From assembly GCA_001793095.1 (NCBI GenBank), contig MGHG01000011.1:1-58744 (forward strand): 58,744 nt of DNA, read 5' to 3'. Positions within the stretch are counted from its first letter, which is position 1. The number at the start of each line of letters is the position of its first letter. The stretch is from Candidatus Woesebacteria bacterium RIFCSPLOWO2_01_FULL_39_23. Its GTDB lineage: Bacteria > Patescibacteriota > Microgenomatia > UBA8517. Positions 599-1,169 of the stretch are shown piece after piece. The position numbers and the translations under genes are program-made. Under the pieces are notes generated by a model, which worked only from the letters and a program-made list of their open reading frames with translations, was not told the origin of the DNA and did not search any database.

Positions 599-673
599 AT
601 TAGTATCTTCTTTTGTCTGAGGTCGGAGCGGTCTTACATACCCGGTCTTCTTTACTACACAGGTTAGTATTTG

Positions 674-744
674 AGACCCGTGAGGGAGTCGAACCCTCCT
701 AAATGGTTTTGCAGACCATCGCATAGCCTCTCTGCCAACGGGTC
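674..744 (-). tRNA. tRNA-Cys (GCA)
   Basis: GACCCGT/ACGGGTC acceptor stem, ATGGT-CTGCAAA-ACCAT anticodon arm, GAGGG-TTCGACT-CCCTC T arm, U discriminator. CCA not encoded. Confidence 0.93.
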
Positions 745-997
745 ATTTATCCATACTGTTTTTTAATCTTTTTAGAAGCTCGTTTCTTACTGCGTGCATT
801 TTGAGCTCTTTTTCTCTTTTCGTGGCATCCTTTTTACTTATATATGCCTCGTAATACAATAATTTCCATGGTGTGTATGGTTTTGTCGATTTTACTTTAC
901 CTATATTATGTAGCTTAAATCTTGCTTTAAGATTGCCACTATATCCAACATATATATCGCCATTTTTTACACTTCTTAGAACATATGCGTAAAACAT
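743..997 (-). CDS. Small GIY-YIG nuclease (UPF0213/YhbQ-like)
   Basis: YAYVL...IYVGYS..LKARF..HN.G...T....PWKL.YYE...A..RE..LK. Its TGA stop overlaps the first 2 nt of tRNA-Cys. Confidence 0.88.
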   Translation of the reverse strand: MFYAYVLRSVKNGDIYVGYSGNLKARFKLHNIGKVKSTKPYTPWKLLYYEAYISKKDATKREKELKMHAVRNELLKRLKNSMDK

Positions 998-1033
998 GTA
1001 ATTGACTTAAAGAGGGGTAATCTACGCATAAGT

Positions 1034-1103
1034 GTTTTGTCCTGCAGAGCAGGATCTCGCTCTGCGAGACAGACCGCCCGATAAACCTCTCTCGCACGTG
1101 GCC
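1034..1103 (-). pseudogene. 5' half of a second tRNA-Cys(GCA), interrupted in the anticodon and lacking its 3' half
   Basis: Removing 1040-1069 gives GGCCACG TG CGAG AGAGGTTTA TCG G GCGGT CTGCAAA AC. The D stem (CGA/TCG) and Cys anticodon loop are intact; the sequence diverges after AC. Confidence 0.7.
1040..1069. repeat. REP-like 30-bp double hairpin
   Basis: TCCTGC-AGA-GCAGGA immediately followed by TCTCGC-TCT-GCGAGA: two 6-bp stems with 3-nt loops. Confidence 0.75.
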
Positions 1104-1142
1104 GATGAATCCTATTTTACTCTACTCACCCTCAAAAACAAA

Positions 1143-1169
1143 ACCCCGCCAAGTTTAACTCAGCGGGGT
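1143..1169 (-). terminator. Intrinsic terminator downstream of hsp20
   Basis: Minus strand ACCCCGC...GCGGGGT followed by TTTGTTTTT. Confidence 0.6.

What the first reader, a model, noticed from the sequence alone, without database searches (positions are those of the whole stretch)
674..1103. Broken tRNA-Cys + anticodon-inserted double hairpin + GIY-YIG nuclease + replacement tRNA-Cys
Seen (minus strand, in order): a promoter-like TAAAAT; a tRNA-Cys 5' half (GGCCACG... acceptor) with a 30-bp double hairpin inserted exactly between G34 and C35; loss of its 3' half; an 84-aa GIY-YIG gene; and, overlapping that gene's stop codon, an intact tRNA-Cys with different acceptor, D and anticodon stems. 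Known: free-standing GIY-YIG endonucleases such as phage T4 SegB home into tRNA gene regions. Inferred: a chromosomal nuclease + resistant-tRNA cassette that cuts the resident tRNA gene at the anticodon and replaces its function while borrowing its promoter. This is a candidate minimal selfish element and the best candidate for an undescribed system here.
Basis: partly seen in the sequence, partly recalled or inferred. Interest (0 to 1): 0.82.

Follow-up and report, generated by a model that had tools for sequence, protein, structure and literature searches.

The report
Nuclease cassette that replaces tRNA-Cys gene
A tiny nuclease gene carrying its own spare tRNA-Cys gene has split and replaced the resident tRNA-Cys gene of this ultra-small (CPR) bacterium, and the same apparently undescribed selfish cassette, always marked by a 30-base double hairpin, recurs across this bacterial group.

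Summary
On the minus strand lie a TAAAAT box, a tRNA-Cys 5' part (1103-1070), a 30-nt double hairpin ("dh") exactly between G34 and C35, an 84-aa GIY-YIG gene, and an intact, different tRNA-Cys overlapping its stop codon. The old gene's 3' half is not simply lost. Positions 35 to about 50 follow the hairpin, and a decayed hairpin plus a 13-nt tRNA 3' end lie downstream of the new tRNA.

Relatives settle the history. Ten of 12 syntenic Woesebacteria-like loci carry a plain tRNA-Cys (some GGCCACG-type) at the same place behind HSP20, with no nuclease and no hairpin. The composite recurs in about 50 metagenome loci. A DNA-only search for the hairpin found 42 CPR species genomes, 38 with the nuclease beside it. 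In some syntenic pairs the nuclease gene is 99% identical while flanks are 77%, so the cassette moves horizontally.

Best reading: a free-standing homing-type nuclease that brings a replacement copy of its essential target and runs off the resident promoter. Not shown: cleavage at the anticodon, and resistance of the new tRNA. The hairpin is a mobile-looking element in its own right. I found no description of this. Rating: new variant of a known kind.

The parts
1143..1169 (-). Intrinsic terminator of the upstream HSP20 gene (1188-1592). It marks the start of the tRNA-Cys transcription unit.
   Evidence: Terminator scan. HSP20 by Pfam. Relatives show the same HSP20, terminator, TAAAAT, tRNA-Cys order.
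1114..1119 (-). -10-like box TAAAAT of the resident tRNA-Cys gene. It is inferred to drive the whole composite (fragment, nuclease, new tRNA).
   Evidence: Sequence. TAWAAT lies 9-14 nt before the old 5' fragment in 35 of 43 related loci and before the plain tRNA-Cys in syntenic loci. The generic promoter scan did not call it because the -35 is weak.
1070..1103 (-). Resident ('old') tRNA-Cys, positions 1-34: GGCCACGTGCGAGAGAGGTTTATCGGGCGGTCTG.
   Evidence: nhmmer against the tRNA-Cys HMM after hairpin removal, E = 2.6e-8. GGCCACG-type intact genes sit at the syntenic site in L239 and L241.
1040..1069 (.). Double hairpin (dh): TCTCGC-AGA-GCGAGA TCCTGC-TCT-GCAGGA. It is inserted with no target duplication between G34 and C35. 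It has dyad pseudo-symmetry with a central GATC.
   Evidence: Unique in the window. The same site is occupied in 29 related fragments. Stems covary: 253 of 264 cells are Watson-Crick paired, and stem position 4 shows 4 pair types, in inserts chosen by their flanks only.
1021..1039 (-). Continuation of the old tRNA-Cys (positions 35 to about 51): CAAAACACTTATGCGTAG. It decays after about position 49.
   Evidence: HMM alignment to model position 51. The first 15 nt are identical to L237's tRNA-Cys.
998..1020 (-). Leader of the nuclease gene (ATTACCCCTCTTTAAGTCAATTAC). This is the left end of the inserted cassette. A CCCCTC motif recurs in the leaders of Val/Ala-type relatives.
743..997 (-). 84-aa stand-alone GIY-YIG nuclease of the UPF0213 / SLX1-like type. 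It is a catalytic domain only.
   Evidence: Pfam PF01541, E = 2.7e-14. PDB sequence search: 1zg2 at 2.7e-10, then SLX1. AF2 model pLDDT 83; Foldseek finds UPF0213, SLX1 (TM 0.64) and I-TevI. Y3, Y5, Y16, G18, R26, H30 and E62 are conserved in at least 90% of 44 family ORFs. pN is about 0.04-0.2 against pS about 0.2-0.8.
673..744 (-). Intact replacement ('new') tRNA-Cys(GCA), GACCC type. Its first base is the G of the nuclease stop codon TGA.
   Evidence: ARAGORN. Rfam 56.4 bits. The same tRNA type travels with the related ORF in L035, which has a different old gene.
632..659 (-). Decayed double hairpin (TGTAGTAAAGAAGACCGGGTATGTAAGA).
   Evidence: Aligns to the intact dh at the same junction in L031. 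This is a by-eye reading of a decayed element and is the least certain part.
619..631 (-). Remnant of the 3' end of an earlier tRNA-Cys (T-stem 3' strand, acceptor 3' strand, U73): CCGCTCCGACCTC.
   Evidence: Only match in the window at up to 2 mismatches. Twenty-two of 47 related loci have a 3' fragment in this place.

Best explanation
This is a selfish, homing-type gene cassette that has invaded the single resident tRNA-Cys gene.

What the cassette is. It consists of a minimal 84-aa GIY-YIG nuclease gene (UPF0213/SLX1-like) followed directly by a complete tRNA-Cys gene of a different sequence type. It sits inside the old gene. The old gene's promoter and its positions 1 to about 50 remain upstream. 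Scraps of an old 3' end remain downstream.

How it is expressed (inferred). The composite is transcribed from the old promoter as one precursor: dead leader, nuclease mRNA, then tRNA. RNase P releases the new tRNA at the stop codon. The host therefore cannot silence or lose the unit without losing its tRNA-Cys.

How it spreads (inferred). The nuclease breaks cassette-free tRNA-Cys genes. Repair copies the cassette, using the tRNA-derived flanks as homology.

The hairpin. The 30-nt double hairpin belongs to a family of dyad-symmetric palindromic insertions. They sit precisely, with no target duplication, in the D, anticodon and T loops of the displaced tRNA pieces and never in the working copy. 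I regard it as a mobile or convertible companion element. It is most likely the DNA structure that this SLX1-like nuclease acts on.

Shown: the anatomy, the empty alleles, recurrence of the composite, horizontal movement, and the tight linkage of hairpin, nuclease and tRNA. Inferred: nuclease activity and its target, co-transcription, and the role of the hairpin.
For: 1. Empty alleles. Ten of 12 syntenic Woesebacteria-like loci have HSP20, a terminator, TAAAAT and then a plain tRNA-Cys, with no GIY-YIG and no hairpin in 74 kb. L239 and L241 are GGCCACG-type. L237 shares CAAAACACTTATGCG with the window fragment.
2. The same composite is present in relatives with 61-71% identical nucleases (L028, L030, L031). 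Fifty of 80 metagenome loci have tRNA-Cys 3-58 nt after the ORF. Of 47 unique loci, 22 have a 5' fragment upstream and 22 have a 3' fragment downstream of the working tRNA. In L035 the two pieces (GGCCGGA... and ...TCCGGCC) fit together as one old gene split by the cassette.
3. Horizontal movement. L077 against L079: flanks 77%, ORF 98.8%, tRNA 100%. L037 against L038: 71-74% against 89%. L040 against L043: 90.5% against 100%. L056 against L093: flanks 80% but the ORFs cannot be aligned.
4. A DNA-only census for TCTG+dh+CAAAAC finds 42 species-level genomes, all of CPR-type lineages. Thirty-eight have the ORF on the same strand within 700 nt, and 8 have a hairpin on both sides about 400 nt apart. 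All 55 strict hairpins in 288 kb of ORF-bearing loci lie within 313 nt upstream to 432 nt downstream of the ORF start.
5. The nuclease fold and the catalytic Y, Y, R, H, E residues are kept and are under purifying selection.
6. The design is general. Twelve of 21 relatives in other lineages abut a tRNA gene on the same strand. Eight of these 12 have a significant partial copy of that tRNA on the far side of the ORF, including in Ignavibacteria, Bacteroidales, Chthoniobacterales and Bacteroidetes.
7. There is a published precedent for the principle in mitochondria (PMC3630166).
Against: - No cleavage data exist. An 84-aa catalytic domain has no DNA-binding domain, so long-site specificity of the kind seen in classical homing endonucleases is doubtful.
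- The working tRNA carries the same loop sequences as the displaced pieces, and in L047, L049 and L085 it is identical to them. How it escapes cutting is unexplained.
- In L077 against L079 the highly similar tract runs from the promoter to the outer 3' end of the old gene. That fits replacement of one composite by another. It does not by itself show invasion of an empty gene.
- The loci are metagenome assemblies in which the hairpin and tRNA are shared repeats (word depth 234 against about 15). Some mosaicism could therefore be an assembly error.
- Hairpins also occur with no ORF nearby, so their dependence on this nuclease is unproven.
- The window copy itself looks old: its closest ORF is 71% identical and its 3' remnants are decayed.
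Confidence: 0.7

Rival explanations
1. The system is centred on the hairpin. The 30-nt double hairpin is the primary mobile element, and the small GIY-YIG protein is its nuclease, acting in cis or in trans on hairpin or cruciform DNA, much as RAYT serves REP elements. On this view the partial tRNA duplications and the ORF-tRNA unit are repair products, or the autonomous form, of this element rather than a classical homing cassette.
For: - The hairpin has dyad symmetry and compensating stem changes even between 96%-identical loci (L077 against L079).
- Insertion is precise, with no target duplication, at four fixed tRNA sites.
- There are nested and tandemly amplified hairpins (L038, L050).
- ORF-less '5' fragment + hairpin + intact tRNA' units exist for Trp, Gly and Cys.
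- Codon-aligned 10-residue inserts occur in protein genes.
- The protein's closest characterised relatives are SLX1 structure-specific nucleases.
- Relatives in other phyla carry other TC...GA hairpins at the same kind of site.
Against: - GIY-YIG enzymes are hydrolytic nucleases with no known strand-transfer activity.
- There is only one hairpin in the 58.7-kb window.
- Six of about 10 perfect hairpins from an unbiased scan have no GIY-YIG within about 4-8 kb.
- No intermediate or excision product was seen.
Confidence: 0.25
2. The gene is domesticated. On this view the GIY-YIG protein has a cellular role, such as repair or nucleic-acid processing, and is simply co-transcribed with tRNA-Cys. 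The upstream tRNA-like piece is a structured leader left by an old tandem duplication.
For: - The ORF-tRNA-Cys pair is widespread in CPR.
- The ORF is intact and under purifying selection.
- The window copy is old and identical across many samples.
- UPF0213 proteins are common stand-alone bacterial proteins of unknown role.
Against: - The ORF is absent from 10 of 12 syntenic relatives.
- ORF and flank identities disagree in both directions.
- Relatives sit in many different tRNA genes, in 16S rRNA, in RNase P RNA and in front of pilin genes.
- ORF-less footprints exist.
- The leader folds no better than shuffled sequence (z = -0.81).
Confidence: 0.1
3. It works at the RNA level. On this view the hairpin or the ORF is an intron (group I or archaeal-type), or the 5' piece is half of a split tRNA joined to a distant 3' half.
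For: - The anticodon loop is the classical site of bacterial tRNA group I introns.
- The hairpins sit in the loops of the cloverleaf.
Against: - No intron or ribozyme family matches in 400-1400, even at E up to 10.
- The downstream tRNA is complete on its own.
- The old 5' acceptor strand GGCCACG pairs with neither the new 3' strand nor the 3' remnant TCCGACC.
- Every locus has a hairpin-free working tRNA. No locus has a hairpin-bearing gene as its only copy.
Confidence: 0.03

Closest known systems
Mitochondrial mobile ORFs (mORFs) that create gene hybrids: Allomyces macrogynus atp6, and Glomus atp6, atp9, cox2 and nad3 (PMC3630166, read; the original 1994 Allomyces report is cited from that paper)
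   Same: A free-standing endonuclease ORF (LAGLIDADG, or GIY-YIG in atp9) lies inside a conserved gene. It brings a foreign copy of the part of the gene it displaces. The native part is left beside it as an unused remnant. The insert is expressed from the host gene's promoter.
   Different: Here the setting is a bacterial (CPR) chromosome and the target is a tRNA gene. The whole gene is supplied, not just a terminus. The native piece next to the promoter is the 5' part. The nuclease is an 84-aa catalytic domain only. The displaced pieces carry double hairpins.
Free-standing GIY-YIG homing endonucleases of T-even phages, for example SegB in the T4 tRNA gene cluster (PMC2330249, title and abstract seen)
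   Same: A GIY-YIG nuclease gene lies among tRNA genes. It is inherited preferentially, together with flanking DNA, by break repair.
   Different: Seg proteins, like I-TevI, have a C-terminal DNA-binding region (from my own knowledge). SegB does not split a tRNA gene or carry a replacement. It is phage-borne. By sequence and fold the window protein is nearer to UPF0213 and SLX1 than to I-TevI.
GIY-YIG proteins in non-intron insertion sequences of CPR rRNA genes (PMC11270868, read)
   Same: The same bacterial group and the same protein superfamily, with insertion at stem-loops of structural RNA genes. My loci L006, L109 and L111 are of this kind.
   Different: [quoted passage not shown] In tRNA genes the insert cannot be tolerated in the RNA, so a spare gene copy comes with it.
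Double-hairpin elements of mitochondrial DNA, Rickettsia palindromic elements, and REP/RAYT (the first appears only as a term in papers listed; the rest is from my own knowledge)
   Same: These are short palindromic elements that form two hairpins, spread within genomes, and can sit in RNA genes or in frame in protein genes.
   Different: No sequence relationship was tested or is claimed. The hairpin here is 30 nt, dyad-symmetric around GATC, is inserted with no duplication at fixed tRNA loop positions, and is tightly linked to a GIY-YIG gene.
Integrase-borne islands and prophages that integrate into tRNA genes and restore them (from my own knowledge)
   Same: A mobile element sits in a tRNA gene, keeps a working copy and leaves a partial duplicate.
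   Different: There is no recombinase in the unit. The displaced piece at the promoter side is the 5' part. A complete new gene is supplied, rather than a 3' end fused at a crossover.

Membership tests
GIY-YIG nuclease superfamily | GIY-YIG catalytic domain with the conserved Tyr, Tyr, Arg, His and Glu residues | tested here: met
   Pfam PF01541, E = 2.7e-14. The AF2 model has the beta-beta-alpha-beta-alpha core. Y3/Y5, Y16, G18, R26, H30 and E62 are conserved in at least 90% of 44 ORFs.
UPF0213 / YhbQ-like stand-alone GIY-YIG proteins (SLX1-like nuclease domain) | Single-domain protein of about 80-110 aa with closest similarity to BH0048, EF2693 and the SLX1 nuclease domain | tested here: met
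   hmmsearch against PDB: 1zg2 at 2.7e-10, 1ywl at 1.2e-7, SLX1 7wme at 1.3e-3, I-TevI at 0.1. Foldseek gives the same order.
Classical free-standing homing endonuclease (Seg / I-TevI type) | A separate DNA-binding domain that gives recognition of a long target site | tested here: not met
   The protein is 84 aa and Pfam finds only the catalytic domain, at residues 1-67. The model shows no further domain.
Classical free-standing homing endonuclease (Seg / I-TevI type) | Cleaves the cassette-free allele of its own insertion site | not testable with these tools
   This needs a cleavage assay on plain tRNA-Cys genes such as those of L239 or L241.
Classical free-standing homing endonuclease (Seg / I-TevI type) | Patchy presence at one homologous site, with a history that differs from that of the flanks | tested here: met
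   Empty alleles in 10 of 12 syntenic relatives. ORF 98.8% against flanks 77%, and the converse case.
Endonuclease ORF with replacement copy of its target gene (mitochondrial mORF gene hybrids) | The ORF lies inside the target gene, with a second, functional copy of the displaced gene part next to it | tested here: met
   Old tRNA-Cys 1 to about 50, then the ORF, then a complete tRNA-Cys.
Endonuclease ORF with replacement copy of its target gene (mitochondrial mORF gene hybrids) | The replacement copy is foreign to the locus | tested here: inconclusive
   The new tRNA is GACCC-type. Nine of 10 syntenic relatives have GG(C/T)C-type genes, and the same GACCC type accompanies the related ORF in L035. 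However, the closest relative, L234, has a GACCC-type gene at the site with no ORF.
Endonuclease ORF with replacement copy of its target gene (mitochondrial mORF gene hybrids) | The native part is retained as an unused remnant | tested here: met
   A 5' part with a hairpin lies upstream, and a decayed 3' end lies at 631-619. Non-use is inferred from the disruption, not measured.
Group I intron in a tRNA anticodon loop | Ribozyme core between two exons that together make one tRNA | tested here: not met
   No Rfam intron match at E up to 10. The downstream tRNA is complete and the acceptor strands do not match.
Integrase-mediated island in a tRNA gene | A recombinase gene, and an att duplication of the tRNA 3' part | tested here: not met
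   The only ORF with a family match between the fragment and the remnant is the GIY-YIG gene. The promoter-side duplicate is the 5' part.

The most novel reading that the evidence does not exclude
The double hairpin and the SLX1-like mini-nuclease together form a new kind of bacterial mobile system. In it the nuclease recognises a DNA shape (hairpin or cruciform) rather than a long sequence. On this reading the 30-nt dyad-symmetric hairpin is the minimal mobile unit. It is inserted with no target duplication at ^(C/G/A)A(A/G)-like sites in tRNA loops, and in frame (10 codons, SxxAGSxxAG) in protein genes. The ORF plus spare-tRNA cassette is its autonomous form. By breaking an essential single-copy tRNA gene while supplying a replacement, that cassette would behave as a natural 'cleave and rescue' drive.
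Probability: 0.25. Interest if true: 0.9.

Novelty: new variant of a known kind. Interest (0 to 1): 0.78.

Why it matters
- It gives a concrete role to one branch of a very large family of small stand-alone GIY-YIG proteins of unknown function. The family has 5,656 clusters at 50% identity with E up to 0.001.
- It shows how a selfish nuclease gene can live inside an essential, single-copy tRNA gene: it brings a spare and takes over the promoter, so the host cannot shed it cheaply.
- It extends to bacterial chromosomes, and to RNA genes, a trick known so far from fungal mitochondrial protein genes.
- It is a trap for annotation. tRNA fragments and 30-nt inserts in CPR genes are easily read as errors. 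The hairpin and tRNA repeats also break assemblies.
- The hairpin is a compact, precisely inserted element with a testable partner enzyme of only 84 residues. That makes the question 'what does a bare GIY-YIG domain recognise?' directly approachable in vitro.

Tried and rejected
- Intron or ribozyme. The Rfam scan of 400-1400 at E up to 10 gave only the intact tRNA and terminator-like noise.
- Structured RNA leader. The fold of 998-1110 is no more stable than shuffled sequence (z = -0.81).
- Split or permuted tRNA. The acceptor strands do not pair.
- Integrase att site. There is no recombinase in the unit. An rve_3 transposase lies beyond the window start in the longer contig L001 but is outside the composite.
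- NCBIfam and PHROGs gave no useful name for the protein.
- Reads. Only DNA runs stored as short assembled contigs were available. They show presence and repeat-induced breaks, but no excision or empty form, and there were no RNA data.
- A claim I withdrew. I first read L040, L041 and L043 as one cassette in three contexts. They in fact share the left flank, and L041 merely has a roughly 100-nt replacement inside the old fragment. Only their right flanks differ, exactly at the end of the old 3' piece.
- A circular test I did not use. Alignment A3 was built from hairpins chosen for being palindromic. The unbiased test is.
- An idea I could not support: that the hairpins poison recombinants that would delete the cassette. 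Crossovers 5' of the hairpin would still give a clean tRNA.
- Literature. Ten searches found no paper on GIY-YIG cassettes in bacterial tRNA genes or on these hairpins. The library does not hold most subscription journals.
Full report
**What is at the locus.** All of the following is read on the minus strand.
- The HSP20 gene (1592-1188) ends in a strong terminator (1169-1143).
- TAAAAT lies at 1119-1114.
- Ten bases later comes GGCCACGTGCGAGAGAGGTTTATCGGGCGGTCTG (1103-1070).
- Then comes TCTCGCAGAGCGAGA TCCTGCTCTGCAGGA (1069-1040).
- Then CAAAACACTTATGCGTAG... (from 1039).
- A short leader follows, then an 84-codon ORF (997-743).
- An intact tRNA-Cys(GCA) lies at 744-673 (ARAGORN; Rfam 56.4 bits). 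Its first base is the G of the ORF's TGA.
- The ORF is a GIY-YIG domain (Pfam E = 2.7e-14).
- The source is a CPR metagenome-assembled genome, GCA_001792375.1. The same 600 nt are identical in five independent assemblies and are present in about 20 sequencing runs.

**Is the upstream piece a tRNA?** The standard detectors miss it.
- I built an HMM from 47 intact tRNA-Cys genes of related loci and removed hairpins of the form TC....GA from the flanks. The window's upstream piece then matches model positions 1-51 at E = 2.6e-8.
- Its D stem differs from the intact copy by paired changes. The hairpin sits exactly between G34 and C35.
Fifteen bases after the hairpin are identical to positions 35-49 of a relative's tRNA-Cys (L237).
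- Sixty bases beyond the new tRNA lies CCGCTCCGACCTC (631-619). This is the only match in the window to the tRNA-Cys 3' end at up to 2 mismatches. It is preceded by what aligns as a decayed hairpin.
- That 3' end would not pair with GGCCACG, so the locus holds traces of more than one event.

**Empty alleles.** I searched species-representative genomes with the HSP20 protein. This gave 12 Woesebacteria-like loci at 61-76% identity.
- Ten have a plain tRNA-Cys on the same strand 65-760 nt after HSP20, and in nine of them a TAAAAT box lies shortly before it.
- None has a GIY-YIG gene or a hairpin.
- L239 and L241 are GGCCACG-type and L237 is GGTCACG-type.
The upstream piece is the resident gene of this site, still behind its own promoter box.
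- L233 and L237 also show decayed 3'-end scraps after their intact tRNA. These look like footprints of past invasions.
- L234, the closest relative, has a GACCC-type gene like the window's new one. Whether that type is foreign to the locus therefore stays open.

**The composite recurs.**
- Relatives whose nucleases are 61-69% identical have the same layout (L028, L030, L031).
- A metagenome search with the protein family returned 80 loci. In 50 of them a tRNA-Cys follows the ORF by 3-58 nt. In others the following gene is tRNA-Ile, Val, Ala, Arg or Leu.
- Of 47 unique Cys loci, 22 have a detectable 5' fragment before the ORF and 22 have a 3' fragment after the working tRNA. Short 10-17-nt fragments, seen by eye, are not counted.
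- In L035 the 5' piece (GGCCGGA...) and the 3' piece (...TCCGGCC) belong to one old gene, split by the ORF plus a new GACCC-type tRNA.
- Beyond this clade, 12 of 21 relatives in other lineages abut a tRNA gene on the same strand. Eight of those 12 have a significant partial copy of that tRNA on the other side of the ORF, often with a hairpin in or replacing a loop. These include Ignavibacteria, Bacteroidales, Chthoniobacterales and Bacteroidetes.

**The double hairpin.** Its form is TCNNGC-NNN-GCNNGA twice, around a central GATC. It matches the same pattern on both strands.
- To avoid circularity I chose inserts by their flanks only (TYTG, 30 nt, CAAAAC). Twenty-one of 22 distinct inserts are such hairpins. 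Of 264 stem cells, 253 are Watson-Crick pairs, and the fourth stem position shows all four pair types in each hairpin.
- In tRNA-Cys fragments it sits at fixed places: the D loop (GAAGTG^GAAAC, 6 fragments), the anticodon loop (GTCTG^CAAAAC, 29), the T loop (GGGTT^CGATTC, 8), and, by eye, 10/11. It is always two hairpins with no duplication of the target.
- It never occurs in the working tRNA.
- All 55 strict copies in 288 kb of ORF-bearing loci lie within 313 nt upstream to 432 nt downstream of the ORF start. None occurs in 74 kb of empty syntenic loci.
- A complete scan of 185,579 species genomes for TCTG+hairpin+CAAAAC found 42 genomes, all of CPR-type lineages. Thirty-eight have the GIY-YIG ORF on the same strand within 700 nt, and eight have a hairpin on both sides of ORF+tRNA.
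- The hairpin is not confined to this setting. A truncated scan for the bare pattern gave about ten perfect copies, nearly all in CPR. These include ORF-less '5' fragment + hairpin + intact tRNA' units for Trp, Gly and Cys. They also include codon-aligned 10-residue inserts (SxxAGSxxAG) inside protein genes.
- The hairpin therefore behaves as an element in its own right. It cannot be read simply as the scar of a cut at the anticodon.

**Movement.** For syntenic pairs I compared flanking DNA, ORF and tRNA.

| Pair | Flanks | ORF | tRNA |
|---|---|---|---|
| L077 vs L079 | 77% | 98.8% | 100% |
| L037 vs L038 | 71-74% | 89% | 98.6% |
| L040 vs L043 | 90.5% | 100% | 100% |
| L062 vs L066 | 82% | 93% | 80% |
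| L056 vs L093 | 80% | cannot be aligned | 91% |

- In L077 against L079 the similar tract runs from the promoter to the outer end of the old 3' piece.
- Such disagreement in both directions means that the cassette is exchanged among homologous tRNA-Cys loci.
- One caveat applies. These are metagenome contigs, and the hairpin and tRNA are shared repeats (depth 234 against about 15). Some mosaics could therefore be assembly errors.
- I withdrew an earlier reading of L040, L041 and L043 as three separate contexts.

**The protein.**
- By sequence it is closest to UPF0213 proteins (1zg2 at 2.7e-10), then to SLX1, then to I-TevI.
- A confident model (pLDDT 83) gives the same order by fold.
- The catalytic Tyr, Tyr, Arg, His and Glu residues are conserved, and the ORFs evolve under purifying selection.
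- It is a catalytic domain only. This argues against long-site recognition of the I-TevI kind and for recognition of DNA structure, as in SLX1. That last point is an inference.
- The family is large: 5,656 clusters at 50% identity.

**Mechanism I commit to, at confidence 0.7.** This is a homing-type selfish cassette, a nuclease gene plus a spare copy of its essential target, sitting in the resident tRNA-Cys gene and using that gene's promoter.
- The composite is transcribed as one precursor.
- RNase P would cut between T745 and G744, which would leave the nuclease mRNA without its stop codon.
- Spread is by break repair, with the tRNA-derived flanks serving as homology.
- The hairpin is a companion palindromic element and probably the nuclease's substrate.
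- Shown: the anatomy, the empty alleles, the recurrence, the linkage and the horizontal exchange.
- Inferred: nuclease activity, its target, co-transcription, and the role of the hairpin.
- Unexplained: how the working tRNA escapes cutting. In L047, L049 and L085 it is identical to the displaced pieces.

**Comparison with known systems.**
- The principle of an endonuclease ORF that brings a replacement for the gene part it displaces is documented for fungal mitochondrial genes (PMC3630166).
- GIY-YIG genes in CPR rRNA insertions are known, but that paper does not mention tRNA (PMC11270868).
- T4 SegB lies among tRNA genes but does not split or replace one (PMC2330249).
- I found nothing on this tRNA cassette or on the hairpin in ten searches.
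- I therefore rate it a new variant of a known kind, with a companion element that may prove more novel than the cassette itself.

Noticed in passing
window 56592-56828 (-), next to the tmRNA gene at 56971-57364 (-): A second small GIY-YIG gene (78 aa, 38% identical to the first) lies 143 nt downstream of the tmRNA gene on the same strand. Long hairpins and a TAAAAT box lie between them. I saw no double hairpin and no obvious tmRNA duplicate.
   Followed up: partly
window 743-745: The tRNA starts at the G of the nuclease's TGA stop codon. RNase P processing would therefore remove the stop codon from the nuclease mRNA and make it a non-stop message, a possible tmRNA substrate. In 43 related loci the gap is 3-99 nt instead.
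   Followed up: no
L114:1085, L116:1205, L122:160, L178:5743, L223:2739: The same 30-nt double hairpin occurs inside long open reading frames of other CPR genomes. It is codon-aligned in all five cases and adds ten residues of the form SxxAGSxxAG. Hosts include MetK-like and ornithine-carbamoyltransferase-like proteins. No GIY-YIG gene lies nearby.
   Followed up: partly
L183:3990-4070, L184:1730-1835, L207:3811-3900: ORF-less units exist: a 12-17-nt 5' fragment of tRNA-Trp, tRNA-Gly or tRNA-Cys, a double hairpin, 5-8 more tRNA bases and a 30-45-nt spacer, followed by the intact tRNA. They are either degenerated cassettes or hairpin-linked duplications made without an ORF.
   Followed up: partly
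L006, L109/L111, L083; L007-L009, L014, L017, L073, L084, L087, L089, L091, L092, L094: Relatives of the nuclease sit in other targets. Some are inside 16S rRNA genes, flanked by inverted repeats. One is in what reads as an RNase P RNA gene. Many lie just before type IV pilin-like genes, flanked by an inverted copy of the pilin leader coding sequence.
   Followed up: no
L233:3572-3660 and L237:3543-3640: Two 'empty' syntenic loci carry decayed copies of the tRNA-Cys 3' end 60-80 nt after the intact gene. This fits cycles of cassette gain and loss.
   Followed up: no
L050 (upstream of ORF), L038 (upstream of ORF), L018:2222-2330: In L050 one hairpin plus CAAAACAAG is repeated three times in tandem. 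In L038 hairpins are nested inside a hairpin. In L018 a second GIY-YIG copy follows in tandem after a tRNA-Pro 3' fragment.
   Followed up: no
window 1029-1075 in runs X16 and X18: Word depth at the hairpin is 234 against about 15 for the flanks, and the short assembled contigs break there and at the tRNA. Many community members therefore share these sequences, which is a risk for chimeric assemblies.
   Followed up: partly
L001:3935-4828 (beyond the window's start): An rve_3 (IS3-like) transposase gene lies between SSB and the PEGA/UbiA genes. In relatives L028 and L030 the cassette abuts PEGA/UbiA directly and in the other orientation, so the neighbourhood has been rearranged.
   Followed up: no
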